From positions 1,893 through 65,892 of the forward strand of contig JAPKBM010000001.1 in the NCBI GenBank assembly GCA_026421205.1: a DNA stretch of 64,000 nucleotides, written 5' to 3'. This document shows, piece after piece, positions 18,831-62,749 of the stretch. This stretch comes from Planctomycetota bacterium. GTDB lineage: Bacteria; Planctomycetota; UBA1135. Made by a program: the position numbers and the translations under genes. Below the pieces are notes generated by a model. The model made no database searches, was not told the DNA's origin, and was given only the letters and a program-made list of their open reading frames with translations. How positions within the stretch are numbered: the first letter of the stretch is position 1; the number at the start of each line of letters is the position of its first letter.

Positions 18831-18877
18831 GAGGGAAGTTTATCTTGGAGCCAATCCGCGTGATACCTTTTCCTGCC

Positions 18878-44172: not shown

Positions 44173-44600
44173 ATTTTCCACTCCTTAACGCGGTCTTAAA
44201 TACCACGGCCACCATTCTTCTGGTCGCCGGGCTCATCCTCATTCGCCAAGGCAATGAGGCCGCACACAAAAAAGCAATGCTGTCTGCATTCTTTTGCTCT
44301 GTGGTTTTCCTTGCCTCTTACATCTGGCATCATTATTCCGTAGGGCTTCGTATTGCCTATGCGGGACCGGAATGGGGGGAAATCCCCTACCTTACGATGC
44401 TTTTAGTTCATACTGTTTTGGCCGCTACCGTTCCTTTTCTTGTCATCAAAGTCATTCGACATGCCCTTAAGGATGAGCGAAGTCTCCATAAAAAATGGGC
44501 GCGGATCACTGCCCCGATTTGGCTCTTTGTTTCCATCTCGGGTGTTTTAATCTACCTTATCCTTTACGTTTGGACGGACTCTTATGCTGCCACGCTTTGA
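44169..44600 (+). CDS. DUF420-family membrane protein (cytochrome-oxidase-associated)
   Basis: LLNAVLNTTATILLVAGLILIRQGNEAAHKKAMLSAFFCSVVFLASYIWHH matches the DUF420 pattern as I recall it. ATGA overlap with the SCO1 gene. Confidence 0.7.
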   Translation: MNFPLLNAVLNTTATILLVAGLILIRQGNEAAHKKAMLSAFFCSVVFLASYIWHHYSVGLRIAYAGPEWGEIPYLTMLLVHTVLAATVPFLVIKVIRHALKDERSLHKKWARITAPIWLFVSISGVLIYLILYVWTDSYAATL

Positions 44601-48540: not shown

Positions 48541-49545
48541 GTGATTAATTCTGTCTCCAACCTCCGCAAGAAATGGAACCTTGCCCTTTTCGGAAGTCTC
48601 CTTGGTACTGCTCTTGGGGGCACGCTCATGATTGGTGGAGCTTGCGTGGTGGTCGGGAAAACTTTGGGGCAAGAATTCACCCCTCTCGCTCTCTGGCTTT
48701 CTTTGGGGTCCGGAGTTCTTGTGGCCTGGCTTCGTTTCAGAAAACGCCAAGTGGACACGGAGCAAATGGCTACTCTCCTGGATCTTCGCCATGGAGGAAC
48801 TGGGGAAATCCTTCACTGCATTGAAACCGGAAAACCGCTCCTGGAATATTCATCGTCAGTGTCTTCTCCTCGGCCCACCGTCAAACGAATGTCAGCCGTC
48901 CTCCTTCCCGGAGTTCTTTTTTTCACGTTGGCCTCTCAGGTTCCACTCACGGCTCATCATCAAAACGCCGTCGACCCGCTCAGCGCGCAAAAACTGGAGG
49001 ACCTTCAAAAATTCGCCGTGTCCCTCGAAGAAACGGTCCATCTTGAAGGTGAAGTGCGGGCAGAAGTGCAAGAACGCATGGACTTGTTGCAATCCACCGA
49101 TGCACGAGATGCCGCAACCCAGGACATCCTAAGAGAGGCACTAGACCGCATGGAGTCTCGCCTCGATGAAGTGGCACAGCAAACCGCCCAAAACCTGGAT
49201 GCCATTCGCCGGTCCGCAGAAGAAGCTGCAACAAATGGTGCCGAGGGGAATCAAGAAGATGCCCTCAAGCAACTGGCCGATCTCGCGAAGCAACTTGAAA
49301 ACCTAGGTATCAATCTAGAGGACCTTCTCACCCCGGAACTCTTGGCCGCGCTTCAGGAAAGTCTTTCGCCTGAAATGCTCGCCAATCTTGATCTGAATGC
49401 CTTGGCCGACCTCCTCTCCCAAGGCGCGCTGGACAAACTCAAAGCACTTGCTCAAAAAGGACTCTTAAGTGGAGAGGCTCTTGCTCAACTCGCAAAGAAC
49501 TTTGGCAACTTCCAGAAACAGTTTGGCCAAAGCGGAGAACCATGA
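48541..49545 (+). CDS. Hypothetical membrane protein with acidic coiled-coil domain
   Basis: GTG start. TM segments near the N-terminus, then Leu/Glu/Ala/Gln-rich heptad-like sequence. It ends at the TGA at 49543-49545, which is in the same frame as the next ORF. Confidence 0.55.
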   Translation: MINSVSNLRKKWNLALFGSLLGTALGGTLMIGGACVVVGKTLGQEFTPLALWLSLGSGVLVAWLRFRKRQVDTEQMATLLDLRHGGTGEILHCIETGKPLLEYSSSVSSPRPTVKRMSAVLLPGVLFFTLASQVPLTAHHQNAVDPLSAQKLEDLQKFAVSLEETVHLEGEVRAEVQERMDLLQSTDARDAATQDILREALDRMESRLDEVAQQTAQNLDAIRRSAEEAATNGAEGNQEDALKQLADLAKQLENLGINLEDLLTPELLAALQESLSPEMLANLDLNALADLLSQGALDKLKALAQKGLLSGEALAQLAKNFGNFQKQFGQSGEP

Positions 49546-49593
49546 AGTGGTGGCGGCGCCTGCGCAGGTTGCGCGGCACACCCAGCAGGAACT

Positions 49594-49890
49594 TTGCCCG
49601 GATCCGGCGGAGTCAGCCGAGGGCCGGGAACCTCCCCTCTTTCTTGGGGGTCAGAAACTCAAAGTTTAAAAAATGACATGGCCATGGAGGCCTTGCCAGC
49701 CCCTGGATCCATAGAAGAAGCAATGCAACTCATGCAGCTTTCCACCATGATGCCCAACGCATCACCAGAGCACCACAACACCACCGCCGCGAAATCCAAT
49801 ACAACGACAACAGGATCCGCCACATGGAAACGTCGGCTGCACCCAAAACATCGTCAAGCGGTTCGCAACTTCTTTGACGAAGACCGCTAA
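49594..49890 (+). CDS. Hypothetical protein; possibly the C-terminal continuation of 48541..49545
   Basis: Same reading frame as the upstream ORF, stop-free from 49546. TTG 49594 (AGGA 3 nt upstream) or ATG 49678 are possible independent starts. Gly-rich GSGGVSRGPGTSPLSWGSE. C-terminal WKRRLHPKHRQAVRNFFDEDR. Confidence 0.35.
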   Translation: MPGSGGVSRGPGTSPLSWGSETQSLKNDMAMEALPAPGSIEEAMQLMQLSTMMPNASPEHHNTTAAKSNTTTTGSATWKRRLHPKHRQAVRNFFDEDR

Positions 49891-49900
49891 ACTTTTTCTC

Positions 49901-50938
49901 ATGAACTCCAAGCCACACCCCCTCTCTGAAAAAGAGGTGCGCGACGCACAGGCCATCGGCGGACACCTTCTCCAAGAACTGAATCAAATCATTTTGGGGC
50001 AAGAAACTCTCGTTCGCCAAGTCATCACCGCAGCACTGGCCGGCGGACATGTTCTCCTTGAAGGTCTTCCGGGTCTTGGGAAAACGGAACTCATCAAAGG
50101 ACTTGCTCATCTCCTGGATTTAGATTTCCGTCGCGTGCAATTCACACCTGACCTCCTCCCTGGCGATATTACAGGTGGGCCCATCCTTGAAGAGAAAAAT
50201 GGAGAACGAAATTTTGTTTTCCGCGCAGGACCTATTTTCTGCAACATTCTCCTCGCCGACGAGATCAATCGAGCGTCGCCCAAAACTCAATCGGCACTCC
50301 TTGAGGCTATGGCCGAAGCGCGCGTCACCGTCATGGGAGAAACGCGTGACTTGCCCAATCCGTTCTTTGTGCTCGCTACTCAAAATCCCATTGAACTAGA
50401 AGGCACCTACCCTCTCCCTGAAGCTCAATTAGACCGCTTCCTCTTTAAGGTCACGGTTCACCCCGTCTCCGCAGAGGTTCTCAAGAATATTCTACAAACC
50501 CGACGCCACGGGAAACCGCCCCAACCCCAAGCCGTGGCGCAGGCGGAAGACTTTATTCAATTCCAAGAATCCGCGGGACGCCTTCATTTTCCCGATGCCG
50601 TCATGGGCTGGATTGCACGCATTTGCGAAGCTTCCCATCCAGATGCTTCGCAAGCGCCTTCCATGATTCAGCAATATGTCCGCTTCGGCGCAAGCCCTCG
50701 AGCCGCCATTTCGATTGCCGAAGCAGCTCGCATTGATGCCCTCCTAGATGGAAAAACCACCGTTGGATTTGACAATGTTCGTCGCGTCGCAGAACCTGCT
50801 CTGTCACATCGCCTTATTCTCAATCATCAAGCCCGCCTTGACCGTGTTTCTTCTCAAATCATTACGGAAGACTTGCTCAACACGGTGAGCGAAATGCACA
50901 AGCCACTTCCAAAAGAAGTCATTGACACAAAGGCTTGA
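49901..50938 (+). CDS. MoxR-family AAA+ ATPase
   Basis: Walker A LLEGLPGLGKTELIKGLAHLL. Walker B and sensor ILLADEINRASPKTQSALLEAMAE. FFVLATQNPIELEGTYPLPEAQLDRF. Confidence 0.9.
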   Translation: MNSKPHPLSEKEVRDAQAIGGHLLQELNQIILGQETLVRQVITAALAGGHVLLEGLPGLGKTELIKGLAHLLDLDFRRVQFTPDLLPGDITGGPILEEKNGERNFVFRAGPIFCNILLADEINRASPKTQSALLEAMAEARVTVMGETRDLPNPFFVLATQNPIELEGTYPLPEAQLDRFLFKVTVHPVSAEVLKNILQTRRHGKPPQPQAVAQAEDFIQFQESAGRLHFPDAVMGWIARICEASHPDASQAPSMIQQYVRFGASPRAAISIAEAARIDALLDGKTTVGFDNVRRVAEPALSHRLILNHQARLDRVSSQIITEDLLNTVSEMHKPLPKEVIDTKA

Positions 50939-52650
50939 TTGCCTCTCTCCTCTTCCTTGGCGCTTTTTTTCAAGCCCCCCCTGCAGAGTCCTTTCGCGCA
51001 GAAACACGTAATGGCATTCATATCACCACAGAATGCTACTTCCCTAAGGCGCTTCATAGCGGATTTGTTCCGATCCGCATTCGACTTGAAAACATGCGCG
51101 ATGAGCCCGTTGCCCTCGAAGTGCTCTTGCGTCAAGGCTATTGGGACGAAGCAATCACTCAGGGACACCTCACCTTAGAACCTGGGGAAAGCCGTCGGCT
51201 TGATTGGAGAGCCTTGCATTGGGAGAGTCTTGGAGACGAGCGTGTGAACCTACAGGTTACAGAAGGGCAAAAAACAATTGCACGTTGGGAGATTCTTCAG
51301 ACACTCCCCAATAGCGCCCTAGGTTCCCACATTGGCCTCGTCGTCGTCGGCGAGAAGAGTAAAAACACGGCAGAACATCTTAATGGAAGAAAATTCGCCA
51401 GGAGTTCGGCCTCGCCCCAATTGATTTCTGCCAGCGGCCTTCCATCGGGAAGAGCGCCGACAGACTGGCGCGCATGGTCTTCTTTACGCGTCGTGGTGGT
51501 TGCATCTCATGACACAACTCTTTCGCCCGACGTCCTTCGCTCTCTTGGAGAGTGGACCTCTCTGGGTGGATTCTTGGTTGTAGAGGGCACCCACGCCGAT
51601 GCTCTCGCCCTCTTGCGGCAAGCTGATATTCCTTTAGAAGAACGCTTGGGCTCTTCCACGGACATGTCCGAAGTTTACCGGCATGGATTTGGGCGCGTCA
51701 CATTTCCAAGAAATTCTGCCATGGCTTGGGAGCTTTTAGATGATGTCGTTCACTGGGATTTATCCTTCACGCCAGCGAATGGGCCATTTCCTTCTAAACT
51801 TTCCCTACTTGACCTTCCCATACCGGGGCTTCTTGACATTCCTGTTCGTTTTTTCATTCTCCTCCTCATTATTTTCGCTTTTTGTGTTGGGCCGGGCCAA
51901 TTTCTCTACCTCAAAAAGAAAGGGAAGAGCGCATTTACCTTTCTCCTTTTCACGCCGGCCCTTGGCTTATTGTTCACGGTCATTCTGTTGGGCTGGCCCG
52001 TGCTCTCTCAAGGCCTTCATGTAAAAGACCGCGTTGCATCCATCACTTGGCTTCACCAGGAATCTCACACAGCTTCTACCATTCTTCAGCGTTCCACTTT
52101 TTCCGGAAGCCGCATCCGAAAAGGGGCTCTTTATCAAGCGGGAACTGCCGTGATTCCAAAGCACTCCGCCCTCACGGACCAGAAAGACAGCTTTGTCATC
52201 AACATGGATCAAGCCGGTTCACTCACAGGGAGGTACTTTCCCGTGAGAGTGCCCTTTGAAGAGCAGCAAGCCAATGTACGCACCGCTCGCAATCAAGTCG
52301 TGATCAAAAAAGAAGGCGAGCTCCTTTTTGCCTCTCACAATTTTGACACCAAACTTTCCGACTTCTTTTTTCATGACAGCGCAGGCCAATGGTGGAAGCC
52401 TGGGGAAATGGGCAGCCTCCTTGAGCAAGCACAACATATCCCCCTTCAACTTTGCGAAGAACCGGAACCACTCAAACTACAATTACTTTCTTCTAGCAAC
52501 CTCGCCCACCTTCCTACGCACATCCCAACCAATACTTGGGTTGCATGGCTCGAGCACTCCCCCTTTGTGGATGACGGCGAAATAGAACGCTCGGTCGTAC
52601 AAAGCCAAAACCTCACCTTTGGCCTTCTTTCCCAAGAACAGTCTCCATGA
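50935..52650 (+). CDS. Hypothetical signal-peptide protein with mid-protein TM helices (possibly an ABC-auxiliary/GldG-like component)
   Basis: The TTG start overlaps the moxR TGA (TTGA). MIASLLFLGAFFQAPPAESF. The segment LRVVVVASHDTTLSPDVLRSLGEWTSLGGFLVVEG resembles DUF4350/ABC_transp_aux-type domains. TM helices around FFILLLIIFAFCVGPG and LLFTPALGLLFTVILLGW. Confidence 0.55.
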   Translation: MIASLLFLGAFFQAPPAESFRAETRNGIHITTECYFPKALHSGFVPIRIRLENMRDEPVALEVLLRQGYWDEAITQGHLTLEPGESRRLDWRALHWESLGDERVNLQVTEGQKTIARWEILQTLPNSALGSHIGLVVVGEKSKNTAEHLNGRKFARSSASPQLISASGLPSGRAPTDWRAWSSLRVVVVASHDTTLSPDVLRSLGEWTSLGGFLVVEGTHADALALLRQADIPLEERLGSSTDMSEVYRHGFGRVTFPRNSAMAWELLDDVVHWDLSFTPANGPFPSKLSLLDLPIPGLLDIPVRFFILLLIIFAFCVGPGQFLYLKKKGKSAFTFLLFTPALGLLFTVILLGWPVLSQGLHVKDRVASITWLHQESHTASTILQRSTFSGSRIRKGALYQAGTAVIPKHSALTDQKDSFVINMDQAGSLTGRYFPVRVPFEEQQANVRTARNQVVIKKEGELLFASHNFDTKLSDFFFHDSAGQWWKPGEMGSLLEQAQHIPLQLCEEPEPLKLQLLSSSNLAHLPTHIPTNTWVAWLEHSPFVDDGEIERSVVQSQNLTFGLLSQEQSP

Positions 52651-53582
52651 CCGCCCTCCTCGAAGTCCGAGGCCTCACACGAAAGTTCGGCCAACTTACC
52701 GCGGTTAATAACGCAAGTTTTTCCGTCGGGGCGGGAGAAATTTGGGGATTCATCGGTCCCAATGGGGCAGGGAAAACAACAACTATGCGCACGATTGCCA
52801 CTTTGGATATTCCAGACCAAGGTGACATTTTCATTGAAGGTCGCTCCGTTTTAGTAGAACCGCAACGCACTCGCCAACGCATTGGATTCATGCCCGACGC
52901 CCTTGGGACCTATGCGGATACCACAATTTATGAGTACTTGGATTTCTTCGCCCGCGCCGTTGGTCTTTCGCAGGAACTCCGCCCCCAAAGGGTTCGAGAA
53001 GTATTGTCGTTCACCGACCTAGGCAAACTGTGTGACCGCATGATGGACAGCCTTTCCAAAGGCATGAGCCAACGCCTTTGTCTTGCAAAAACGCTCCTTC
53101 ACGACCCAGCACTTCTTATTTTGGATGAACCCGCTGCCGGCCTGGATCCACGTGCTCGCGTGGAATTCCGTGAGCTCATCCGCGCTCTGGCTAGTCAGGG
53201 AAAAGGAATCTTAATTTCAAGCCACATCCTTTCTGAACTTTCCGAAGTGTGCGATGGAGTTGTGGTGATTGAAAAAGGGAGCATTGTCCGCGAAGGCCGT
53301 GTACATGAGCTCACCAAAAATATTTCGGAACATGAAATGCTCTTCATCCGCACTTTAGAGCCTGTTCATGAATTAGAAAGAGCGCTCGCTGAAATCCCAG
53401 GAGTCCTAAAAACGAGACAAGAAAAGTCAGGCATGGTGGTTGAGTTTCAAGGGGAAGAAGACGCCATCGCTGACCTCCTGCAGGCTCTAGTGCAGCGAAA
53501 TCTTCGACCCATTGAATTCCACTGGCATAAGGCAGACCTGGAAGAGCTCTTTCTCTCTTTCACGGAGGGAAACCTGCAATGA
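52647..53582 (+). CDS. ABC transporter ATP-binding protein (ABC-2 subfamily type)
   Basis: Walker A GFIGPNGAGKTTTMR. Signature LSKGMSQRL. Walker B LLILDEPAAGLD. ATGA overlaps at both ends. Confidence 0.9.
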   Translation: MTALLEVRGLTRKFGQLTAVNNASFSVGAGEIWGFIGPNGAGKTTTMRTIATLDIPDQGDIFIEGRSVLVEPQRTRQRIGFMPDALGTYADTTIYEYLDFFARAVGLSQELRPQRVREVLSFTDLGKLCDRMMDSLSKGMSQRLCLAKTLLHDPALLILDEPAAGLDPRARVEFRELIRALASQGKGILISSHILSELSEVCDGVVVIEKGSIVREGRVHELTKNISEHEMLFIRTLEPVHELERALAEIPGVLKTRQEKSGMVVEFQGEEDAIADLLQALVQRNLRPIEFHWHKADLEELFLSFTEGNLQ

Positions 53583-55054
53583 GCCGTTTCCTCCAGGCCC
53601 TTGACCGCAAAATTAATCCCGTATTCGTCAAGGAAATACGGCAATCCCTCCGGGGTCGTTTCTTCCGAACCGCCTTCTTCATGGCTTTGGCCGCTGCATG
53701 GATTACGACACTTTTCGTCTTGAGTAATGGTTTGCGGAACGGGGAACAGACCAGCGGACAATGGTTCTTTCTTTGGCAACATGGCATTTATATTTTGACG
53801 AGTTTCATTGTGATTCCTCAGCTCGCAAACCGGGGAATGTCGGCGGAACGAGAAGAGAATACTTTTGATGCCTTAATGATTTCGGGGCTTTCTCCGGCTC
53901 GGATTGTGATGGGCAAGGTCTTGGCCGCATCCGTCCTTCAAGGGCTTTTCCTCTTTGCATTTCTCCCCTTTCTCTCATTGGGTTTTGCGTTCTTTGGACT
54001 GGACCTCGCAACCAGCCTCATCATTCTCCTATTTACCACCGTGGGTGGTACGGGATTCGCACTCTTCGGAATCCTGGCGGCTTGCCTTGCCAAAACGCGC
54101 GCCAGCAACAATCTCATGCAGGGGATGTTCACAATCGGGACCGTCGGCCTGAGCATGAGCTGGATTGGCTTTTCCTCTGCCGTAATTATGGACCTTGGCT
54201 TGGTGAGCCTTTTCGGTGGAGAATTATTCGCGGGCGTGGCGGTCACCCTTCTTCTTTGGTACCTCTTCCTTTATTGGACCTTTGCATTCACGGCCGCAAC
54301 TTTGACGCATCCGGAAGAAAATGCCAGTGCACGCATCCGATTTGCCAGCCTTCTCTTATCCCTTGCGGCTCTCCTCGGCGCCATCACGCATCTCTCCTTT
54401 GTTCCAGACCCAGAAATTCTCAACATTTGGGTTGTGAGTATTTTGTTGTTCACGATGCTCACACATATTCCATCTATCACAGAAGAAGACACCTTGGGCC
54501 GACGCGCCCTCGCGGACCTCTCCATGAAAAAATGGCGTCGGCCTGGAATGAGTCTCTTCCTTAAAGGTGGTAACCGGGGCGTAGCCTTCTTCCTGCTGTC
54601 TCTTGGCATCCCCTTCCTCCTCTACCTCTTTCCTGTTTCAAGCAGTCCTTTTTCTCCCAGCGTCGGCTTTGAGGGAGTCATTGCCGCGCTTTTTGTCATC
54701 CTCGCCCTTACCGGAACTCCCTCCCTCCTTTCCAGCCGAGCCAGTGCGTCACCCCGAAGGCGCATGTTTCTTCGGTTATTCATTCTTGTCTCACTTCCTT
54801 TCATTTCTTTGATTTCCATTCTTCTTGGCATGGGCACGAAAGATCCATTTGGGTTTCCCTTGAATGCCATCCACTTGATTACGTCGGCATTTGGTGAGGA
54901 GGATTACGCTTATACCTCCGGGGCCTTTGGCCTTTTTGGGATATTCGCACTCGTTGCGTTCATCGGCAATCTCTCTCGAATGAAAAAAGCACGCCAAGAA
55001 CGAAAATTCATCCTTCGCTCTCTCACATTAACGAAACAAGATGGGGAAGACTGA
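53579..55054 (+). CDS. ABC-2-type transporter permease-like polytopic membrane protein
   Basis: N-terminus INPVFVKEIRQSLRGRFFRTAFF, followed by more than 10 hydrophobic helices. Translationally coupled to the ATPase gene. Confidence 0.7.
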   Translation: MSRFLQALDRKINPVFVKEIRQSLRGRFFRTAFFMALAAAWITTLFVLSNGLRNGEQTSGQWFFLWQHGIYILTSFIVIPQLANRGMSAEREENTFDALMISGLSPARIVMGKVLAASVLQGLFLFAFLPFLSLGFAFFGLDLATSLIILLFTTVGGTGFALFGILAACLAKTRASNNLMQGMFTIGTVGLSMSWIGFSSAVIMDLGLVSLFGGELFAGVAVTLLLWYLFLYWTFAFTAATLTHPEENASARIRFASLLLSLAALLGAITHLSFVPDPEILNIWVVSILLFTMLTHIPSITEEDTLGRRALADLSMKKWRRPGMSLFLKGGNRGVAFFLLSLGIPFLLYLFPVSSSPFSPSVGFEGVIAALFVILALTGTPSLLSSRASASPRRRMFLRLFILVSLPFISLISILLGMGTKDPFGFPLNAIHLITSAFGEEDYAYTSGAFGLFGIFALVAFIGNLSRMKKARQERKFILRSLTLTKQDGED

Positions 55055-55883
55055 CCCCATTCAGCTTGGGAAAATCTGGCGACTGGCCAAGCCAACACGC
55101 CCCGCATCAGGGCCTGCTGGAAATCAATTAGGCAAAGGAACCGGTGCTAGTCTGGAATTTCAAGACTACCGGGAATACCAAGCGGGCGATGACCTACGCC
55201 ATGTAGATTGGCGAGCCTATGCGCGCACCGACCAAGTTTCGGTTCGGCTCTACCAAGAAGAAATTTCAACCACCGTTGAACTAATTCTTGACGCTAGCTT
55301 GTCCATGGACCTTTGGTCGAACAAAGCGAACCGTTGGCGAGAACTCTGTTGTTTTTTACACGCTGCAGCAACCGGCGACTATACCGTTCGAGGAGTCCTT
55401 GCAGGAGAGCAGACGTTTCCAATTCCCAGGGAAACCTTTCAAGACCCTGCTCTTCCAGGGATTCATCTTGAAGCGAAAGCTTCGCTAGCCGACGCAAATT
55501 TTGGTGGCCTACTTCGTCCTGGGACTTTGCGGATTGTCATCAGTGACTTTCTCTTTCCCCATCATCCCTCCACTCTCGTAGCGCAGCTTCAAAAAGGGGC
55601 TGGGAAACTCGTTCTTCTTCAAGTTTTAGATGCCGAAGAAACTCAACCGTCTCCCCGCGGTCATTTACGCCTTCAGGAAACAGAAAGTGGCCGACACCAA
55701 GACCTTCCCGTAGATGAGTCCGTCATCCAACGCTACAAGAAAAGACTTCAACGGCTCCAAAACGGCTTGGCCGAAGAAGCCCGTCGGAAAAATGCAATGT
55801 GGGCCACCCTTTCCTGTAAGTCTTCCTTAATGGATCTTGCGGCGGGACCTCTTCAACAAGCCGGGCTTCTTGTTCCTCGATGA
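55041..55883 (+). CDS. DUF58 domain protein (VWA-like, MoxR-associated)
   Basis: GASLEFQDYREYQAGDDLRHVDWRAYARTDQVSVRLYQEE is the DUF58 signature region. Confidence 0.85.
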   Translation: MGKTDPIQLGKIWRLAKPTRPASGPAGNQLGKGTGASLEFQDYREYQAGDDLRHVDWRAYARTDQVSVRLYQEEISTTVELILDASLSMDLWSNKANRWRELCCFLHAAATGDYTVRGVLAGEQTFPIPRETFQDPALPGIHLEAKASLADANFGGLLRPGTLRIVISDFLFPHHPSTLVAQLQKGAGKLVLLQVLDAEETQPSPRGHLRLQETESGRHQDLPVDESVIQRYKKRLQRLQNGLAEEARRKNAMWATLSCKSSLMDLAAGPLQQAGLLVPR

Positions 55884-57631
55884 GTTGGTTCACAACACCC
55901 TGGGGACTCCTTGGCTTCTTGGCCGTTCCAGCCGTTGTGGCACTCCACCTGTTCCACCGCAAGCACCAAAACTTTCCGGTGGCTGGGCTTTTTCTTTGGG
56001 AAGATGCGCAATTTGCAGAAACAGCAGGGGCGCGTCGGCAACCACTCCGACGCACGCCTTCCTTTTGGTTGGAAGTTCTCGCGGCCTTACTTGCCGGACT
56101 ATGGCTGAGTGGCTTTGACCCTTGGGGAAATGGAAAAACAGAACACTTGGTTGTGGTGTTGGATGACTCAGCCTCCATGAGAGCCATGCACGCAAGCGAA
56201 GGTTCTCCTCAAGAAAAGGCCATCCGCTACTTGTCCGACGAGCTTCAAGAGAAAGGCCGGAGAATTCGCACTACCCTCGTTCGATCTGGATTGCGGCCTA
56301 CCTTATTGGCGGGCCCTGGCGCACTCACTCCCGACGTCCTCCGCGCAACGGAAAAGTGGGCGCCACAAGCGCCCGCCCATAATCTCAAACCGGCCCTTGC
56401 CTTTGCGCGAGAATTAGCAGAAGGTGGCAAAATATTATTGCTCACAGACCGTCCCCTTGGGCACCCCCAAGAAGATGTACGGGTCCTTTCTTTCGGTCGG
56501 CCCCTTGCCAATCAAGCTCTGGCAAAATCTATGCGGAAATCGCTTGGTCATGGAGAAGACGAAATAAGCATTACCGTCCGGAATTACAGCGACAACGAGG
56601 CGGCGACTCAGCTCACTTTGCGGCATGGTGAACAAATTCTTGCACAAAAAGATTTAACGCAACCGGCCGACGCCCGCACCACTATTCAACTCTCCATTCC
56701 CTCTCGACTGGGTGCCATTCAAGTCGAACTCAAAGCCGATGCCCTTGGAGTTGACAACCAAGCAGTTCTCCATCCTATCCCAGACCGCCGAGTCAACGTT
56801 TTCTTCGGGCTCAGCGGGGAGACCCATCGCCAACTTCAATTGAGCAAAGCGGAAAATTCCTTTTCTGGAATCCGTCGGGTTTCTCACGCCGCCGACGCCG
56901 ACTTGGTTTTGGCGCATGTCCCGGCCAACCCACCATCTTGGTCTCTGGTTCTTCCCTTGGAAGAAAACGATTTGGAAGCATATGCCGGGCCGTTCGCTTT
57001 TGAACAGCGACACGATTTGCTTGAGGGTCTCACCTTAGAGGGTGTTGTTTGGACATCCTCCAAAGATTTCCCAACGCCGGGGACGCCCTTGGTGAGCGCG
57101 GGAAGCACGGCCTTACTGACAGAGCAGCGCTTGGGGGCTGCCAAGATTTGGCATTTAAATCTTCTTCCTCAACGGTCCACCCTGCAACGCTCTCCAGACT
57201 GGCCAATTCTTTTTTCCAACTTAATCGAACTTTGTAGCCAAGGAAAAGAAGGCCCGCAATCTATCAATCTTGTTTGTGGAGAAACGTTCTCCTATCACGC
57301 ATCAGAATCCGCCGACTGGGCCTTGGAAGGCCCTGACGGCACTCGCCATTTCACAACCGTTGGTGATTTACACCTCAGCGTTCTTGCCCCCTTCGGCTTC
57401 TGGAAACTCCATCGGGACAAATCGCTTGCCGCAATTTTTTCCGTGAACTTTGTGGACCCGTCTGAGTCCGACCTCCGTGACCGTGGGTCTCTCGTGCAAG
57501 CTTCACAGAAAGAAAACATCGCCCCTGCCGAAGCCCGGTTCGCGGAATCACCCGTCGGCCGATGGATTCTCCTTTTCTTCCTTCTTGCTGTCTTAGCAGA
57601 TTGGTGGGTACTCGGGAGGCGTCGGCCATGA
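55880..57631 (+). CDS. BatA-N (N-terminal double-transmembrane domain) protein
   Basis: MSWFTTPWGLLGFLAVPAVVALHLFHRKHQNFPVAGLFLWE, plus a C-terminal TM helix (WILLFFLLAVLADWWVLGRRR). ATGA overlaps at both ends. Confidence 0.75.
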   Translation: MSWFTTPWGLLGFLAVPAVVALHLFHRKHQNFPVAGLFLWEDAQFAETAGARRQPLRRTPSFWLEVLAALLAGLWLSGFDPWGNGKTEHLVVVLDDSASMRAMHASEGSPQEKAIRYLSDELQEKGRRIRTTLVRSGLRPTLLAGPGALTPDVLRATEKWAPQAPAHNLKPALAFARELAEGGKILLLTDRPLGHPQEDVRVLSFGRPLANQALAKSMRKSLGHGEDEISITVRNYSDNEAATQLTLRHGEQILAQKDLTQPADARTTIQLSIPSRLGAIQVELKADALGVDNQAVLHPIPDRRVNVFFGLSGETHRQLQLSKAENSFSGIRRVSHAADADLVLAHVPANPPSWSLVLPLEENDLEAYAGPFAFEQRHDLLEGLTLEGVVWTSSKDFPTPGTPLVSAGSTALLTEQRLGAAKIWHLNLLPQRSTLQRSPDWPILFSNLIELCSQGKEGPQSINLVCGETFSYHASESADWALEGPDGTRHFTTVGDLHLSVLAPFGFWKLHRDKSLAAIFSVNFVDPSESDLRDRGSLVQASQKENIAPAEARFAESPVGRWILLFFLLAVLADWWVLGRRRP

Positions 57632-60348
57632 GTTTTCTTTATCCTGAACTTTTCCTGCTTGGAATCCCCATGGCCTGGTTCCTTTGGAAGCAGAACCATC
57701 CAAAAACAATCGGGTTTTGGTTGCGGGGACTTTTAGCAGCCACTTTATTAACTGCGCTCGCCGGACCCTATGCCCAAGGCGAAACAAAGGGGCGAGACCT
57801 CGTCCTCTTGGTGGATCGCTCCCGCAGCATGCCCGCGGAAACCACCACGGCCGTACAAGAATTTCTTCGTCTGGCCTCCGGAGCAATGGAAACAGGGGAC
57901 CGGCTCTCGCTCCTTGCTTTCGGGGCAAACACCGCACTGGAAAGATCACCCCGCGAAGGGGCGGACTTCGGCGGATTTCAAAGAAACTTGGATGTGGATG
58001 GAACACACCTTGCCGAAGCCTTGGAGCAAGCACTTGCCCTTATTCCTGAAAACCGCCAGGGCTCCATTCTTCTTTTTTCCGACGGCGAATTCCATGGAGA
58101 AACGCCAGACGCAGTTGCTCGAAAAGCCGCGCAACGCCAAGTGCGTATTGATGTGCGCCCCCTCTTGCGCGAAAAAGATTTTGATGTTGCGGTAGAAAGC
58201 ATTGAACTCCCCCATCTCGTTTCCCCGGGGGAGCCTTTTCAATTTTCTGCCTGGGTTCGCTCCGACCAAGCAGTGCAGGCAGATTTTTCACTCTATCGTG
58301 GAGATACCCTCCTTGCGGAGGGGCAGCGAAACCTCCATGTTGGATTAAACCATTTTGTTTTCCGAGATCGAGGTGGCCAGCCCGGGCTCGCCGAGTATCA
58401 CCTTGAAATGAAGGCGAAAGGAGACACCTTGTTTGAAAATAACCGCGGGCTTGGGGTGTTGCGCGTAGAAGGAAGTCGGCCCGTTCTCCTTTTGAATCAC
58501 GCTGGAAAGCCAGGACGACTCGCGGCGGCGCTTTCTTCGGCGGGAATCCCTGTAGTCGTTCGCGCACCTCAAGATCTTCCAGAAGGCCCCTCCTATCTAG
58601 AGGCGTTTGCAAGTGTCATTCTAGAAGACGTCGACGCGAGTTCTTTGGGCGCGCACCTTCCCTACTTTGCAAGACAAGTGCAAGACCTTGCCGGCGGTTT
58701 CATGATGACCGGGGGCAAGGCTAGTTTTGGCGTCGGCGGGTATTACCGTTCCGACCTTGACCCCGCCTTGCCGGTCACCATGGAAATGCGCGTTGAGCAT
58801 CGAAAGCAAGGCATTGCTTTAGCCGTTGTCCTGGACCGGTCAGGTTCGATGGCCGCATCCGCCGGCACCGGAAATCTAACCAAAATGGATTTGGCAAACG
58901 CAGGGACCATGGAAGGCCTTCGGTTATTGGGGCCCCTAGATCAAGTCAGCGTCATCGCTGTTGATTCTGAACCCCATATTGTCATCCCACTGTCTGAAGT
59001 CACCGACCCCGAAGAATTTGCGGACCGCGTTTCCGGCATTCGGTCAATGGGCGGAGGAATCTACACCTACACAGGACTTCAGGCTGCTGCAGAACAGCTG
59101 GAAGGGGCCACACGGGTGAATCGCCACATCCTTTTATTTGCCGATGCACAAGATGCAGAAGAACCCGGTGAATACATTGCTCTATTAGAAGAGCTTGCTC
59201 AAAAATCTACCACGGTCAGCGTGGTTGCCCTAGGCCAACCGACAGACATCGACGCCGATTTCCTCCGTGATGTTGCTAAGCGAGGAGGAGGTGAAATTTA
59301 CTTCACCACATCGCCATCGGAACTCCCTCGTATTTTTGCGCAAGACACTTTATTGGCCGCCCGCGCAGCATTCATTGAAGAAAAAACAGCGTCAACCACA
59401 GCACCCGGACTGTTTGCGGCAGCGGTCCTTCCCCCCGGTGATTGGTCCGAACTCGCTGGCTACAACCTCACTTACCTCCGACCACAAGCATCCGCTGGCG
59501 TACTCACACAAGATGAATACCACGCTCCGGTCATTGCCACCATGCAAGCAGGGCTTGGGCGAACCGCAGCCTTCTTGGGCCAAGTGGATGGCCCCTTTGG
59601 TGTGCCAGAGTCTCAATGGCCTCGCGTTGCAGAAACTTTAGTCACCCTCGTTCGATGGACCGCTTCCCAACCAACCCCGCACTATCTTTTCACCGACGTT
59701 CGCCGCGAAGGGCGAGAGGCGGTGGTCACCGTTGATGTAGACCCAGAACTTGGGAAGCACCCTGGCGCCATCACCCTTCACGCCGTGTCACCCACGGGAG
59801 AAAGCACCAAAATCCCCCTCAGTCCCACAGAAGAAGGTCGATTTGAAGCGAGGGTCCCCCTGAGCATGGAAGGTTTGTACCGCTTTGCCGCTTCAACCGA
59901 AGCAGGTGAAAACTTCGTCCTTGAACCTTTGGCGATCCCCTACTCGCCCGAATTTGAAGCAAGACCGGAAGGTTCCAGTGGTAGAGCCACCTTGACAAGT
60001 ATTGCCCGTCTCAGCCGTGGCCACTTTGAGCCCTCCGTGGATGTTGTTTTAGAAGGCCACCGAGGAGGCGAAGCAACCCAACCACAAACGAAATGGTTCC
60101 TTCTTGCGGCGATTGCACTTTTGCTCAGTGAAATTTCCGTCCGCCGACTTTGGGCTGGATTTACTCTTGGCACATCCGACGTCCAGAAAAAAGAAGTTTC
60201 TGCGCCCAAGACTTTCGCCAAAGAAAGAAAGACGGAAAACAAAAGTCCTATGGAGAAAAAGGAGAACAGAAAAGATGCGGAAGGCGAAGGTGGGCTTGAT
60301 GCGCTCTTAAGGAAGGCCAAAGCCGAGGCCAAGAAACATAACCGATAA
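57628..60348 (+). CDS. Large membrane protein with BatA-N anchor, two VWA domains and a glutamine-amidotransferase-like middle domain
   Basis: ATG at 57628 (GGGAGG 8 nt upstream) overlaps the upstream TGA. MSFLYPELFLLGIPMAWFLW. MIDAS-type DLVLLVDRSRSM and LAVVLDRSGSMAA. Middle segment PVLLLNHAGKPGRL...GGFMMTGG. C-terminal TM helix and Lys-rich tail. Confidence 0.85.
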   Translation: MSFLYPELFLLGIPMAWFLWKQNHPKTIGFWLRGLLAATLLTALAGPYAQGETKGRDLVLLVDRSRSMPAETTTAVQEFLRLASGAMETGDRLSLLAFGANTALERSPREGADFGGFQRNLDVDGTHLAEALEQALALIPENRQGSILLFSDGEFHGETPDAVARKAAQRQVRIDVRPLLREKDFDVAVESIELPHLVSPGEPFQFSAWVRSDQAVQADFSLYRGDTLLAEGQRNLHVGLNHFVFRDRGGQPGLAEYHLEMKAKGDTLFENNRGLGVLRVEGSRPVLLLNHAGKPGRLAAALSSAGIPVVVRAPQDLPEGPSYLEAFASVILEDVDASSLGAHLPYFARQVQDLAGGFMMTGGKASFGVGGYYRSDLDPALPVTMEMRVEHRKQGIALAVVLDRSGSMAASAGTGNLTKMDLANAGTMEGLRLLGPLDQVSVIAVDSEPHIVIPLSEVTDPEEFADRVSGIRSMGGGIYTYTGLQAAAEQLEGATRVNRHILLFADAQDAEEPGEYIALLEELAQKSTTVSVVALGQPTDIDADFLRDVAKRGGGEIYFTTSPSELPRIFAQDTLLAARAAFIEEKTASTTAPGLFAAAVLPPGDWSELAGYNLTYLRPQASAGVLTQDEYHAPVIATMQAGLGRTAAFLGQVDGPFGVPESQWPRVAETLVTLVRWTASQPTPHYLFTDVRREGREAVVTVDVDPELGKHPGAITLHAVSPTGESTKIPLSPTEEGRFEARVPLSMEGLYRFAASTEAGENFVLEPLAIPYSPEFEARPEGSSGRATLTSIARLSRGHFEPSVDVVLEGHRGGEATQPQTKWFLLAAIALLLSEISVRRLWAGFTLGTSDVQKKEVSAPKTFAKERKTENKSPMEKKENRKDAEGEGGLDALLRKAKAEAKKHNR

Positions 60349-60350: not shown

Positions 60351-61664
60351 TTACTTTTTCCCGTACACGTAGCGGGAAAAAATTGCGTGAACGTCGTCGG
60401 ACTTTCCCTTTTTTGCAAGAAAATTTTCAAGGTCCTTTGTCGTCACGACTTTTCGTTGATTGATTTGAAAAAATTCTGCCATCCAAGAATGAAGTTTTTT
60501 TGCAGAAAAAACGAAAGATAGTCGTCCAAAAACATGGCTTCCTAGCATGTAAGAAGCAGGGTGTGTAATCCGGTTCCAGGGGTCGTCGGAAAAAAGAGCG
60601 ACAGCCTGTCCAGGAATCTCTGCTTGCTTTGCACTGAGCCGCATGCCATCGGAAAAGTAAACATCAAAAGCTTCATCCCACCACGCATCATTTTGACTTG
60701 CTGGCTTCACGCCTCTTCCGTACCAACTATGAAACAACTCATGGCGAAGTGCCCCCACGCTGGATGTTGTGGCTCCGTCATACTCCATAGAACGCCCACC
60801 AGTCCATATAAAAATTTTGCACTGAGACCCATGAGGCCAAGGCCCCATAGATTTTGAAAAATCTTTCACCGCTTTTTCCGCGCGATCCAAAAGATTCTTC
60901 GTAGAAGTAGGGACCTCATTTCTCCGGACAACTTCCACCTCAATTTTCTTTTTTCCGGCGCGAATGGTGCGTGACTCCACCTTCACCTTTGACTCTGGAA
61001 GAATGACTACCATAGGCGAAAAGGCTGTAAAGTCTGCGGGAAAGGAAAGTTTCCAGTGATGATTTCCAAGCTTTGTCACCGAGGCATTCGTCACCAAGCG
61101 ATGAGGAGTTTTTGCATGAAGGATTTGAATCTCTAAATCAAAAGGATGCGCGTCAAAAATTAAATTGGAAGAAAACCACTGTCCGAGGTAACGGCCCGGA
61201 AGGAGGTCGGTGAACCAAAAATCAAACTCCAGTGCCCCCTCTTCCCACAAAATGTCTTTTGCTTGAGGGGCCTTTGGCTTTCGGAGAGCATATTCCAAAT
61301 CTAACTGATGAAGAACACCGGAAGGCAATAACGATTCAAGGATTCTCAATTCTCCCGTTTGGCGGCCAAAGTCATGGAGTCTAAGTTTTTCAAGTGGCCA
61401 TGGCTTTTGATTCAACGTTGCTTTTATGAGGCTTTGCCGCAAATCAAAGACGGGAAACCCGGAATCTGAGGACAAGAACTCTAAGGTGGATTCAACAGAA
61501 GCTGTTTTCGCCTCACAATCAAAAACCAAATTTGCGCGCAGACGCTGGATATCAATCGGCGCGGCGAGCAAACCTGAAACTTCCCGGGGTGGTGGTGCAA
61601 GGCGAAGATCCGTAGCTTCAAGGCTTTGAAGAACGAGAGGAGCGAGAAGGAAAAATATCAACAA
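60351..61664 (-). CDS. Secreted M1-family (gluzincin) metallopeptidase, short form
   Basis: Signal peptide MLIFFLLAPLVLQSLEA. GGRSMEYDG (GxMEN-like). HELFHSWYG...WWDEAF gives HExxH-x18-E. Confidence 0.75.
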   Translation of the reverse strand: MLIFFLLAPLVLQSLEATDLRLAPPPREVSGLLAAPIDIQRLRANLVFDCEAKTASVESTLEFLSSDSGFPVFDLRQSLIKATLNQKPWPLEKLRLHDFGRQTGELRILESLLPSGVLHQLDLEYALRKPKAPQAKDILWEEGALEFDFWFTDLLPGRYLGQWFSSNLIFDAHPFDLEIQILHAKTPHRLVTNASVTKLGNHHWKLSFPADFTAFSPMVVILPESKVKVESRTIRAGKKKIEVEVVRRNEVPTSTKNLLDRAEKAVKDFSKSMGPWPHGSQCKIFIWTGGRSMEYDGATTSSVGALRHELFHSWYGRGVKPASQNDAWWDEAFDVYFSDGMRLSAKQAEIPGQAVALFSDDPWNRITHPASYMLGSHVFGRLSFVFSAKKLHSWMAEFFQINQRKVVTTKDLENFLAKKGKSDDVHAIFSRYVYGKK

Positions 61665-62746: not shown

Positions 62747-62749
62747 GAT

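What the first reader, a model, noticed from the sequence alone, without database searches (positions are those of the whole stretch)
49901..60348. Seven translationally coupled genes: a MoxR / DUF58 / BatA-N / double-VWA module with an ABC-2 exporter and a putative auxiliary protein inserted into it
Seen:
- Gene order is moxR (49901), a 571-aa signal-peptide/TM protein (50935), an ABC ATPase (52647), a 491-aa ABC-2-like permease (53579), DUF58 (55041), a BatA-N protein (55880), and a 906-aa BatA-N + VWA + GATase-like + VWA protein (57628).
- The junctions are TTGA, ATGA, ATGA, a 14-nt overlap, ATGA, ATGA.

Established: MoxR ATPases partner with VWA/DUF58 proteins, as in the Bat aerotolerance operons, and their molecular function is still largely unknown.

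Inference:
- A complete ABC exporter sits between moxR and DUF58 with no intergenic space. This suggests one membrane machine coupling a MoxR/VWA chaperone system to transport.
- The 571-aa protein has a segment (RVVVVASHDTTLSPDVLRSLGEWTSLGGFLVVEG) reminiscent of GldG-type ABC auxiliary domains. A related pattern recurs in the large VWA protein (PVLLLNHAGKPGRL...GGFMMTGG).
Basis: partly seen in the sequence, partly recalled or inferred. Interest (0 to 1): 0.6.

Follow-up and report, generated by a model that had tools for sequence, protein, structure and literature searches.

The report
MoxR–ABC–VWA operon led by candidate selenoprotein
The seven overlapping genes are real and form a membrane-associated gene set conserved across several bacterial phyla, with an ABC transporter always sitting between the MoxR ATPase and its DUF58 partner; the set has an overlooked eighth gene that very probably encodes a new selenocysteine-containing protein.

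Summary
Seven same-strand genes (49901-60348) overlap by 4, 4, 4, 14, 4 and 4 nt, with the stated domain content.

The ABC genes are not a chance insertion. I fetched 80 species-level loci anchored on relatives of the large VWA protein, of which 53 were informative.
- 45 keep the accessory protein, ABC ATPase and permease between moxR and DUF58, and one more (L056) keeps the trio after moxR with DUF58 displaced.
- These loci come from Planctomycetota, Verrucomicrobiota, Lentisphaerota, Acidobacteriota and other phyla.
- When the cluster splits, the ABC trio stays with moxR and DUF58.
- No locus has moxR next to DUF58 without the trio.

The 571-aa protein belongs to a large family with no Pfam model. 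Its predicted parts are a signal peptide, a beta-sandwich, a flavodoxin-like domain weakly resembling DUF4350, a two-helix membrane hairpin and a C-terminal beta domain. It does not match GldG models.

The unit is larger than reported. The gene just upstream (48541-49890) is one reading frame interrupted by a single TGA. About 50 relatives carry the same in-frame TGA, some homologues carry Cys there, and a covarying hairpin follows. This points to an uncatalogued selenoprotein.

Function is inferred, not shown: probably a periplasm-facing, two-ATPase assembly or redox machine.

The parts
48541..49890 (+). g0: membrane protein with three predicted TM helices, a long acidic coiled coil, a Cys/Sec motif, a Gly-rich PGxGGVSRGxG motif and a basic C-terminal WKRRLxPKHRxAVxxFF motif. 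It reads as one frame through TGA 49543-49545 and is a candidate selenoprotein.
   Evidence: The two ORFs share a frame with exactly one internal stop. A homologue lies directly upstream of moxR in 27 of 34 loci, as a single fused 343-506 aa ORF in 16 of them. There are no Pfam, NCBIfam or PADLOC hits. Topology is inferred from the positive-inside rule only.
49543..49545 (+). In-frame TGA, proposed selenocysteine codon
   Evidence: The stop is always TGA, in 10 genome lineages and 41 of 47 metagenome loci, in the context C-x3-C-x5-6-GGT-U-(K/S/R)G. Cys occupies the aligned position in L058, L072, L027, L044, L039, L075 and L127. Third-codon-position variation dominates right after the TGA.
49560..49576 (+). 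SECIS-like hairpin: 7-bp stem CUGCGCA/UGCGCGG with a GGU loop that starts 24 nt after the U of UGA
   Evidence: Hairpins at this offset occur in 8 of 10 genome lineages and 28 of 36 metagenome loci, against about 10% at random positions. On 45 sequences 80.7% of cells are paired against 68.3% when shuffled, with 40 compensatory cells against 13.9, and 30-56% paired in slid registers. Folding-energy z-scores are not significant and there is no Rfam match.
49901..50938 (+). g1: MoxR-type AAA+ ATPase (345 aa)
   Evidence: Pfam AAA_3 at 207 bits and AAA_lid_2 at 60.6 bits. Walker A GLPGLGKT and Walker B LLADE are visible in the translation.
50935..52650 (+). g2: accessory membrane protein (571 aa) with a signal peptide, beta-sandwich, flavodoxin-like domain, TM hairpin (residues 304-359) and C-terminal beta domain
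   Evidence: AlphaFold2 model with pLDDT 88 and pTM 0.88. The family has 1691 clusters at 50% identity and no Pfam model. Weak DUF4350 hits in 17 of 40 members. hhalign to the middle domain of g7. Always adjacent to the ABC pair, including the stand-alone trio in L001.
52647..53582 (+). g3: ABC transporter ATPase (311 aa) of the DrrA/GldA/NodI-like branch
   Evidence: Pfam ABC_tran at 98.8 bits. Best NCBIfam hits are GldA at 220.7 bits and DrrA at 214 bits, both below their cut-offs. Walker A, signature, Walker B and H-loop motifs are present.
53579..55054 (+). g4: polytopic permease (491 aa) whose N-terminal half resembles ABC-2 / NosY / CcmB permeases
   Evidence: Sub-threshold ABC-2 Pfam hits in 8 of 22 orthologues. 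AlphaFold2 model at pLDDT 74. Foldseek matches to CcmB and NosY with target TM-scores of 0.5-0.58 and probability 0.96-1.0, but E-values of 0.16 or worse.
55041..55883 (+). g5: DUF58 protein (280 aa), cytoplasmic VWA-like partner of MoxR
   Evidence: Pfam DUF58 at 72.3 bits. It has a DxSxS motif (LDASLS) and no TM segment or signal peptide in the translation.
55880..57631 (+). g6: BatA_N double-TM anchor, VWA domain and C-terminal TM helix (583 aa)
   Evidence: Pfam BatA at 25.6 bits (cut-off 25.9) and VWA_2 at 26.7 bits. Paralogous to g7 residues 1-319 (hhalign 98%).
57628..60348 (+). g7: BatA_N-like anchor, VWA, GATase1-like, VWA, a C-terminal region and a TM helix (906 aa)
   Evidence: Two VWA domains. 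Many homologues carry PF07090 GATase1_like between the VWA domains. The N-terminus is homologous to the BatA_N of g6 (hhalign 95%, E 2e-8). DxSxS is invariant in both VWA domains.

Best explanation
Shown:
- Window 48541-60348 holds one conserved eight-gene unit. In order it encodes a membrane coiled-coil protein with an in-frame UGA (g0), a MoxR AAA+ ATPase (g1), a periplasm-facing accessory protein with a flavodoxin-like domain and a TM hairpin (g2), an ABC ATPase (g3), an ABC-2-like permease (g4), DUF58 (g5) and two membrane-anchored VWA proteins (g6, g7).
- The ABC trio is an integral, ancestral part of this cluster type, not an insertion.

Very probable: g0 is a selenoprotein. The UGA is read as selenocysteine with the help of a hairpin about 15-25 nt downstream, inside a C-x3-C-x5-6-U motif.

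Inferred mechanism:
- Three parts sit in the cytoplasm: MoxR, DUF58 and the ABC ATPase. Four face the periplasm on membrane anchors: g0, g2, g6 and g7.
- I propose that the g2-g3-g4 ABC complex works like NosDFY or GldAFG. ATP hydrolysis would drive conformational work or delivery of a small substrate through a dedicated periplasmic accessory, rather than bulk export.
- g2 may dock onto g7 through their homologous non-catalytic flavodoxin-like domains.
- The MoxR-DUF58 pair would assemble or remodel the complex from the cytoplasmic side, as other AAA+/VWA pairs do for metalloprotein complexes.
- The Cys/Sec motif of g0 would give the assembly a periplasmic thiol/selenol redox activity. This fits the aerotolerance phenotype reported for Bat operons.
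For: Gene order:
- 29 loci are fully collinear and 6 more are collinear but cut by a contig end.
- 10 loci have the convergent form, in which g1-g5 stay together opposite g6-g7.
- No locus has moxR next to DUF58 without the ABC trio.
- The same order appears in contigs found independently.
- g0 lies directly upstream of moxR in 27 of 34 loci.

g2 and g4:
- g2 structure and domain evidence.
- A g2-ABC-permease trio stands alone in L001, which shows g2 belongs to the transporter.
- The g4 fold resembles NosY and CcmB.

Other parts:
- MIDAS DxSxS motifs in g5, g6 and both VWA domains of g7.
- g6 and g7 are paralogous.

Selenocysteine:
- The stop is always TGA and always in frame across about 50 lineages, with spacers that vary only by multiples of three.
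- Cys-containing homologues exist.
- Some loci carry two TGAs 8 codons apart, with 214-442 open codons upstream.
- Hairpin position and covariation.
- A coding signature immediately after the TGA.
- Some Planctomycetes have selA, selB and selD (PMC4807772).

Related concept: DUF4350 resembles GldG and sits in MoxR+vWA operons in archaea (PMC5898192).
Against: - There is no experimental or transcript evidence, and no substrate is known.
- The promoter and terminator scan was uninformative.
- g2 does not hit GldG or ABC_transp_aux models. Whole-model Foldseek gave only low-TM beta-sandwich matches.
- g4 is below the Pfam cut-off and its Foldseek E-values are weak.
- Seven loci have g7, with or without g6, and no partners within 10 kb. 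Co-location is therefore not obligatory.
- Seven of 34 loci show no recognisable g0.
- Selenocysteine machinery could not be checked in any genome that carries the TGA form. The window holds no tRNA and no sel gene among the ORFs I scanned, which were the large ones only.
- Hairpin folding energies are no better than shuffled G+C-rich sequence. No Rfam family matches.
- Membrane topology rests on the positive-inside rule alone.
Confidence: 0.55

Rival explanations
1. The ABC trio (g2-g4) is a functionally independent exporter, for example for a drug, lipid or polymer. It would travel with the MoxR/VWA genes only because it landed in their operon.
For: The same trio stands alone in L001, with no moxR or DUF58 within 7-10 kb. 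The ATPase belongs to the DrrA/GldA/NodI-like exporter branch. The g2 family is very large, at 1691 clusters, so not all members need be MoxR-linked.
Against: The trio sits at one fixed position, between moxR and DUF58, in 45 of 53 informative loci from at least four phyla. It stays with moxR and DUF58 when the cluster splits in two. No locus shows moxR-DUF58 adjacency without it. Overlapping stop and start codons occur at every junction. g2 and g7 share a domain type.
Confidence: 0.15
2. g0 is not a selenoprotein. The TGA is a true stop, and the downstream 70-110 codons form a separate small protein or are produced only by occasional read-through.
For: Public gene callers annotate two genes. 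Selenocysteine machinery was not verified. Hairpin energies are not exceptional. There is no Rfam SECIS hit.
Against: The two parts share a frame in every one of about 50 lineages, although the spacers differ in length. The stop is always TGA. Many relatives have the two halves as one ORF, several with Cys at that codon. The codons right after the TGA show a coding pattern and there is no conserved start codon. The hairpin covaries. Some loci have double TGAs.
Confidence: 0.12
3. The cluster is an orthologue of the GldA/GldF/GldG gliding and type IX secretion ABC system fused to a Bat operon. It would serve surface motility or secretion.
For: GldA is the best NCBIfam hit of g3. The DUF4350 family is reported as GldG-like (PMC5898192). 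g2 has a flavodoxin-like domain.
Against: g3 scores 220.7 bits against the GldA cut-off of 402.6. g2 and g4 have no NCBIfam hit, so nothing to the GldG model, and no GldF match was seen. The g2 architecture (TM hairpin in the middle, extra beta domains) differs from GldG as I recall it. No other gld or spr genes were seen among the flanking genes scanned.
Confidence: 0.05
4. The cluster is a MoxR-vWA type conflict (anti-phage) system.
For: g1 also matches bpMoxR, the MoxR of MoxR-vWA-beta-propeller ternary systems, at 41.5 bits. Such systems are described in PMC7159879.
Against: PADLOC gives no hits apart from generic ABC-ATPase similarity. No effector or beta-propeller gene is present. The order is conserved across phyla and the flanking genes are housekeeping ones. 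The AAA_3 hit at 207 bits far exceeds the bpMoxR score.
Confidence: 0.03

Closest known systems
Bat (Bacteroides aerotolerance)-type MoxR-DUF58-BatA/BatB VWA operons of Bacteroides, Leptospira and Borrelia
   Same: A MoxR AAA+ ATPase, a DUF58 protein and two membrane-anchored VWA proteins with the BatA_N double-TM anchor, encoded in one operon. Molecular function is unknown, and the link to oxidative stress is only phenotypic (PMC3557215 and PMC5700661 appeared; the details are from my own knowledge).
   Different: No TPR proteins of the BatC or BatE kind and no BatD are present. An ABC ATPase, a permease and an accessory protein sit between moxR and DUF58. The large VWA protein has a VWA-GATase1-like-VWA layout. 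A Sec/Cys membrane protein leads the operon.
Predicted archaeal secretion or membrane-remodelling complex built around arCOG01314 (DUF4350), MoxR and vWA proteins (Makarova, Galperin, Koonin 2015, PMC5898192)
   Same: A membrane-anchored extracytoplasmic protein with a GldG/DUF4350-like flavodoxin-like domain is encoded next to a MoxR-family ATPase and a vWA protein. The g2 family gives weak DUF4350 hits.
   Different: ABC transporter genes are not listed among the components of the archaeal system. arCOG01314 has a single C-terminal TM helix, whereas g2 has a central TM hairpin and extra beta domains. The archaeal partners are S-layer or Ig-like proteins. That system is also only a prediction.
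ABC complexes with a dedicated periplasmic accessory: NosDFY (N2O-reductase maturation), CcmAB and GldAFG
   Same: An ABC-2-like six-helix permease core. Foldseek target TM-scores to NosY and CcmB are 0.5-0.58. The ATPase is of the DrrA/GldA branch. A dedicated non-substrate-binding accessory protein is present.
   Different: g4 has a second, unmatched C-terminal half. g2 is unrelated to NosD. No score reaches any family cut-off. No target enzyme is known.
AAA+/VWA remodelling pairs such as NorQ-NorD, CbbQ-CbbO, RavA-ViaA and BchI-BchD (from my own knowledge)
   Same: A MoxR-class ATPase paired with a MIDAS-containing VWA-fold partner. g5 has the DxSxS motif.
   Different: Those pairs act on a known soluble or membrane enzyme. 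Here the client is unknown, and most partners face the periplasm.
Catalogued prokaryotic selenoproteins with CxxU or UxxC redox motifs (review PMC13188914, 119 families)
   Same: An in-frame UGA, Cys-containing homologues, a downstream hairpin and nearby Cys residues that suggest a redox role.
   Different: No listed family matches by description. No NCBIfam model, including the selenoprotein models, hits g0. The motif is C-x3-C-x5-6-U within a Gly-rich linker of a coiled-coil membrane protein, not a thioredoxin-like fold.

Membership tests
MoxR AAA+ ATPase (Pfam AAA_3, PF07726) | AAA_3 domain above the gathering score, with the AAA lid and Walker A/B motifs | tested here: met
   AAA_3 scores 207.2 bits (cut-off 27) and AAA_lid_2 scores 60.6 bits. 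GLPGLGKT and LLADE are in the translation.
DUF58 (PF01882) | DUF58 domain above the gathering score, encoded in the same operon as moxR | tested here: met
   72.3 bits against a cut-off of 23.4. It is in the same operon as moxR but separated from it by three genes.
BatA-type VWA membrane proteins | N-terminal double-TM BatA_N domain followed by a VWA domain with a MIDAS motif | tested here: inconclusive
   g6 scores 25.6 bits for BatA against a cut-off of 25.9, and 26.7 against 27 for VWA_2. g7 has no Pfam BatA hit, but its N-terminus aligns to the BatA_N of g6 (hhalign 95%). DxSxS is present in both proteins.
Canonical Bat aerotolerance operon | batA-batE set including the TPR proteins BatC and BatE, and BatD (definition from my own knowledge) | tested here: not met
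   None of the eight proteins has a TPR or BatD Pfam hit.
ABC transporter ATPase (PF00005) | ABC_tran domain with Walker A, signature motif and Walker B | tested here: met
   98.8 bits against a cut-off of 25. GPNGAGKT, LSKGMSQR and LLILDEP are in the translation.
ABC-2 type permease (PF12698, PF01061, PF12679) | Family HMM above the gathering score, or an ABC-2 six-helix fold | tested here: inconclusive
   23 bits against a cut-off of 31.6. Eight of 22 orthologues give sub-threshold hits. Fold matches to NosY and CcmB have target TM-scores of 0.5-0.58 and probability near 1, but weak E-values and a model pLDDT of 74.
GldA/GldF/GldG gliding-motility ABC system | Equivalog-level matches to the GldA model TIGR03522, the GldG model TIGR03521 and a GldF model | tested here: not met
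   g3 scores 220.7 bits against the GldA cut-off of 402.6. g4 has no NCBIfam hit. None of 40 g2-family members hits the GldG model at E<=1.
DUF4350 / GldG-like flavodoxin-like accessory domain | PF14258 or PF09822 match, and a beta-alpha-beta flavodoxin-like fold | tested here: inconclusive
   17 of 40 family members hit DUF4350 weakly (best E 4.5e-4), the window protein itself does not, and there are no ABC_transp_aux hits. AlphaFold2 shows alternating strands and helices at residues 132-273. hhalign to the GATase1-like region of g7 gives 50% probability and E 1.6e-4.
Bacterial selenoprotein | In-frame UGA with conserved coding sequence on both sides | tested here: met
   Exactly one internal TGA, always in the same frame, in 10 genome lineages and 41 of 47 metagenome loci. 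Coding signature after the TGA.
Bacterial selenoprotein | Homologues with Cys at the Sec position | tested here: met
   Cys is in the aligned column in L058, L072, L027, L044, L039 and L075. L127 reads SGE-C-RGQG. The alignment in this Gly-rich region is of moderate reliability.
Bacterial selenoprotein | SECIS hairpin immediately downstream of the UGA, with a G-containing apical loop about 16-37 nt away (rule from my own knowledge) | tested here: met
   A hairpin with its loop starting 22-30 nt from the U occurs in 8 of 10 and 28 of 36 loci, against about 10% background. Covariation: 0 of 500 shuffles reach the observed values. Folding energy alone is not significant.
Bacterial selenoprotein | The host encodes selA, selB, selC and selD, and selenium is incorporated | not testable with these tools
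   Only 64 kb of the genome and 10-kb flanks of relatives are available. No tRNA was found, and none of the larger window ORFs I scanned with Pfam is a sel gene. Some Planctomycetes have the machinery (PMC4807772).
Known anti-phage defence systems (PADLOC) | Match of the component proteins to defence-system models | tested here: not met
   Only generic ABC-ATPase similarities for g3 and a marginal TRIP13 hit for g1.

The most novel reading that the evidence does not exclude
The first gene of this widely conserved MoxR-ABC-DUF58-VWA operon would encode a previously uncatalogued selenoprotein family, with Cys forms in other lineages. It would be a membrane-anchored, periplasm-facing coiled-coil protein with a C-x3-C-x5-6-U centre. 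The whole eight-gene set would then be a selenium/thiol-dependent envelope redox machine driven by two different ATPases. That would give the first biochemical handle on what Bat-like MoxR/VWA systems do.
Probability: 0.4. Interest if true: 0.8.

Novelty: new variant of a known kind. Interest (0 to 1): 0.66.

Why it matters
MoxR/DUF58/VWA ('Bat-like') operons are among the most widespread bacterial gene sets with no known molecular function. This variant has a fixed ABC transporter module and a Sec/Cys redox protein. It is conserved across Planctomycetota, Verrucomicrobiota (loci labelled Akkermansiaceae and an uncultured Akkermansia species among them), Lentisphaerota and Acidobacteriota.

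It therefore offers concrete, testable parts: two ATPases, a defined accessory protein, MIDAS sites and a redox-active residue whose Sec-to-Cys exchange marks it as functionally central. If the selenoprotein is confirmed, it adds a family to the prokaryotic selenoproteome. It would also correct a systematic mis-annotation, in which one gene is called as two hypothetical proteins in many genomes.

Tried and rejected
- Locus scans with g2-family alignments A1 and A2, and with the g0 C-terminal alignment A6, failed because no stretch was conserved enough. I anchored on g7 (A3) and on a narrower g0 set (A7) instead.
- Whole-model Foldseek of g2 against the PDB returned only low-TM beta-sandwich matches, such as mu-homology domains and GH2 domains, and did not resolve the flavodoxin-like domain.
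- Profile searches of g2 and g4 against PDB sequences gave nothing useful.
A shallow 11-sequence alignment was used instead.
- Rfam had no SECIS match. RNAalifold predicted no consensus on the MAFFT alignment. Folding-energy z-scores of the post-TGA region were not significant, so the hairpin claim rests on position and covariation only.
- The sigma-70 promoter and terminator scan was uninformative.
- tRNA scans of the window and 29 loci found nothing.
- Literature searches for MoxR with ABC, DUF58, the PVC superphylum, selenoprotein or Akkermansia found no description of this cluster.
- The Akkermansia Tn-seq paper (Davey et al. 2023) is not held. My recollection that its 'periplasmic protein complex' mucin-utilization genes might overlap this cluster is therefore untested.
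- I considered the ABC pair near the g6-g7 genes of strain Pla163 (L005) as a displaced orthologue and rejected it. It scores about half of true orthologues and has no adjacent g2.

Full report
**1. Observation**

The region holds seven same-strand ORFs at 49901-50938, 50935-52650, 52647-53582, 53579-55054, 55041-55883, 55880-57631 and 57628-60348.

Pfam results:
- g1 is a MoxR ATPase (AAA_3, 207 bits).
- g3 has ABC_tran (98.8 bits).
- g5 is DUF58 (72.3 bits).
- g6 has BatA_N at the threshold (25.6 against 25.9) plus a weak VWA hit.
- g7 has two VWA domains.
- g4 has only a sub-threshold ABC-2 hit (23 against 31.6 bits).
- g2 has no hit.

NCBIfam places the ATPase nearest GldA and DrrA, but far below their cut-offs. 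It has nothing for g2, g4, g5 or g6. Gene calls on near-identical metagenome contigs give identical gene lengths. The flanking genes are ordinary: cytochrome-oxidase assembly genes and an MFS transporter upstream, and an M1-peptidase-like gene, queA and an inositol-phosphate synthase gene downstream on the other strand.

**2. Is the ABC module a chance insertion?**

No. Homologues of g7 are abundant and are named as Planctomycetota where a name exists. Contigs carrying g7 relatives at 56% and 43% identity show the same seven genes in the same order.

I then fetched 80 species-representative loci anchored on g7 relatives. I annotated them with profile HMMs built from the window genes and their orthologues. 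The result:

| Arrangement | Loci |
|---|---|
| Full collinear g1-g7 | 29 |
| Same order, cut by a contig end, with the ABC genes abutting DUF58 | 6 |
| Convergent: g6-g7 facing g5-g4-g3-g2-g1 (6 complete, 4 cut) | 10 |
| Rearranged, still with moxR-g2-g3-g4 | 1 |
| g7 (with or without g6) with none of g1-g5 within about 10 kb | 7 |
| Too short to judge | 27 |

No locus shows moxR beside DUF58 without the trio. In the split form, the trio stays with moxR and DUF58.

By record title, the loci come from these groups:
- Many planctomycete families, including Gemmataceae, Pirellulaceae, Thermoguttaceae, Brocadiaceae and Saltatorellus.
- Verrucomicrobiota: Haloferula, Akkermansiaceae and an uncultured Akkermansia.
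- Lentisphaerota: Victivallales.
- Acidobacteriota: Blastocatellia and Terriglobia.
- Ca. Auribacterota and Ca. Poribacteria.

Some MAG labels are doubtful.

**3. The parts**

*g2.* It belongs to a large, divergent family with 1691 clusters at 50% identity (E<=1e-3), nearly all about 600 aa. The family has no Pfam or NCBIfam model. An AlphaFold2 model from a 40-sequence alignment is confident (pLDDT 88, pTM 0.88). It shows:
- an N-terminal signal-like helix;
- an eight-strand beta-sandwich (residues 19-122);
- a TM hairpin (304-359);
- a C-terminal beta domain.

Seventeen of 40 family members hit DUF4350 weakly. None hits ABC_transp_aux or the GldG model. A profile-profile comparison aligns the g2 middle domain with the GATase1-like region of g7, in register on the GG motif (50% probability, E 1.6e-4). 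Many g7 homologues carry PF07090 there. Neither domain has a nucleophile Cys at the elbow position, so I take both to be non-catalytic; this is read from the sequence.

Makarova et al. report that DUF4350 proteins are GldG-like flavodoxin-fold proteins encoded with MoxR and vWA genes in archaea (PMC5898192). That is the closest published concept, but ABC genes are not listed among its components.

In L001 a g2-like gene, an ABC ATPase and a g4-like permease stand alone without moxR. This marks g2 as an accessory of the transporter.

*g4.* A moderate-confidence model (pLDDT 74) matches CcmB and NosY permeases over its N-terminal half. Target TM-scores are 0.5-0.58 and probabilities are near 1, but E-values are weak. 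One distant homologue is named by JGI as a 'multi-copper enzyme maturation permease'.

*g6 and g7.* They are paralogous over their first 320 residues, including the double-TM anchor. g5, g6 and both VWA domains of g7 keep the DxSxS MIDAS motif.

*Defence systems.* PADLOC finds no defence-system match.

**4. An overlooked eighth gene with an in-frame TGA**

The ORF at 48541-49545 has TM helices and a coiled coil, and no family hit. The small ORF that ends at 49890, 10 nt before moxR, is in the same frame. Exactly one stop, TGA at 49543-49545, separates them. In many other loci the two parts are a single 343-506 aa ORF directly upstream of moxR. A g0 homologue precedes moxR in 27 of 34 loci.

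The in-frame stop recurs in every 'split' lineage:
- Ten genome lineages and 41 of 47 metagenome loci have it. These were fetched with the C-terminal motif.
- The stop is always TGA.
- The context is always H(V/E)C-D-E-x-C-K-x-P-G-G-T-TGA-(K/S/R)-G.
- Spacer lengths differ only by whole codons.
- Three loci have two TGAs eight codons apart, behind 214-442 open codons.
- Several fused homologues, and the close relative L127, have Cys at the aligned position.

The thirteen codons after the TGA vary mostly at third positions (summed entropy 4.3, 5.9 and 9.2 for positions 1, 2 and 3). The core CAC GCC GTG GGC GTG is frozen.

That core forms a hairpin:
- Its 3-5-nt G-containing loop starts 22-30 nt from the U of the UGA.
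- Such hairpins occur in 8 of 10 genome lineages and 28 of 36 metagenome loci, against about 10% of random positions in the same loci.
- On a 45-sequence alignment the 7-bp stem is 80.7% paired against 68.3 +/- 1.5% when shuffled (0 of 500 shuffles reach it).
- It has 40 double-change cells against 13.9 expected, and 30-56% pairing in slid registers.
- Caveats: I chose the structure after seeing the sequences. Folding energies alone are unremarkable in this G+C-rich context. Rfam has no match.

By the criteria used in the field, g0 is a strong selenoprotein candidate. No NCBIfam model, including the selenoprotein models, hits it. The 2026 catalogue of 119 prokaryotic families lists nothing like it. 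Some Planctomycetes do have the selenocysteine machinery. I could not check the machinery in the genomes concerned; the window has no tRNA, and none of its larger ORFs that I scanned is a sel gene.

**5. Mechanism (inferred)**

Signal peptides, TM segments and the positive-inside rule suggest this layout:
- Cytoplasmic: MoxR, DUF58 and the ABC ATPase.
- Periplasm-facing on membrane anchors: g0, g2, g6 and g7.

I propose a single envelope machine:
- An ABC complex with a dedicated accessory protein works in the manner of NosDFY or GldAFG. It does conformational work or delivers a small substrate.
- This complex may be joined to g7 through the shared flavodoxin-like domains.
- The MoxR-DUF58 pair assembles or remodels the machine.
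- The Cys/Sec centre of g0 gives it a thiol/selenol redox function.

This would fit the aerotolerance phenotype of Bat operons (from my own knowledge). The conservation of the unit is well supported. The mechanism is a hypothesis.

**6. Comparison and novelty**

This is not the canonical Bat operon, because it has no TPR or BatD proteins. It is not GldAFG, because the cut-offs are not met. It is not a known defence system. I rate it a new variant of the MoxR/DUF58/VWA kind, with an integral ABC module.

I found no description of it in the searchable literature. The selenoprotein candidate appears to be a new family. A possible link to the Akkermansia mucin-utilization 'periplasmic complex' genes could not be checked, because the paper is not held.

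Noticed in passing
window 48541-49890 (TGA at 49543-49545): The gene upstream of moxR is one frame interrupted by a single TGA. The apparent 356-nt intergenic gap is coding. Public gene calls split it into two hypothetical proteins. It is a candidate new selenoprotein family.
   Followed up: yes
L122, L126, L128 (and the truncated L120), around the g0 Sec site: These relatives carry two in-frame TGAs eight codons apart (…CPLC…PGET-U-PGAEGGT-U-KGG…). This looks like a tandem duplication of the PGGT-U unit. How one downstream hairpin could serve both codons is unclear.
   Followed up: partly
L001 10001-14588: A g2-like gene, an ABC ATPase and a g4-like permease stand alone without moxR, DUF58 or VWA genes. 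The ATPase is split into two ORFs, which may be a frameshift. The trio lies downstream of WXG100 and FtsK/SpoIIIE (type VII secretion-like) genes.
   Followed up: partly
window 49542-49676: A 44-aa arginine-rich ORF (MKWWRRLRRLRG...) starts with an ATGA overlap on the g0 TGA in another frame. It was found only in the near-identical contigs L002 and L003, so it is probably spurious.
   Followed up: partly
window 9275-36569: A large envelope-polysaccharide region. It holds five sulfatase-domain genes (9275-11476, 16908-18830, 18845-20638, 29855-31891, 31891-33780), a sulfotransferase, Wza-like Poly_export, Wzx-like and Wzy_C genes, a polysaccharide deacetylase and several glycosyltransferases. 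This may be a sulfated exopolysaccharide locus.
   Followed up: no
window 43513-47203: Cytochrome-oxidase biogenesis genes (SCO1/SenC, DUF420, a di-haem cytochrome c, CtaA-like, CtaB/UbiA) sit immediately upstream of the MFS gene and g0. This is a copper and haem handling neighbourhood.
   Followed up: no
window 60351-63940 and L004 15960-21417: queA and the myo-inositol-1-phosphate synthase gene lie downstream on the opposite strand, both in the window and in the 56%-identity relative L004. This local synteny extends beyond the operon.
   Followed up: no
L069, L083, L086, L033, L080, L023 upstream of moxR: Several verrucomicrobial loci, one from Brocadiaceae and one labelled Acidobacteriota have the full g1-g7 set but no recognisable g0 upstream. 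g0 has either diverged beyond detection or been lost.
   Followed up: no
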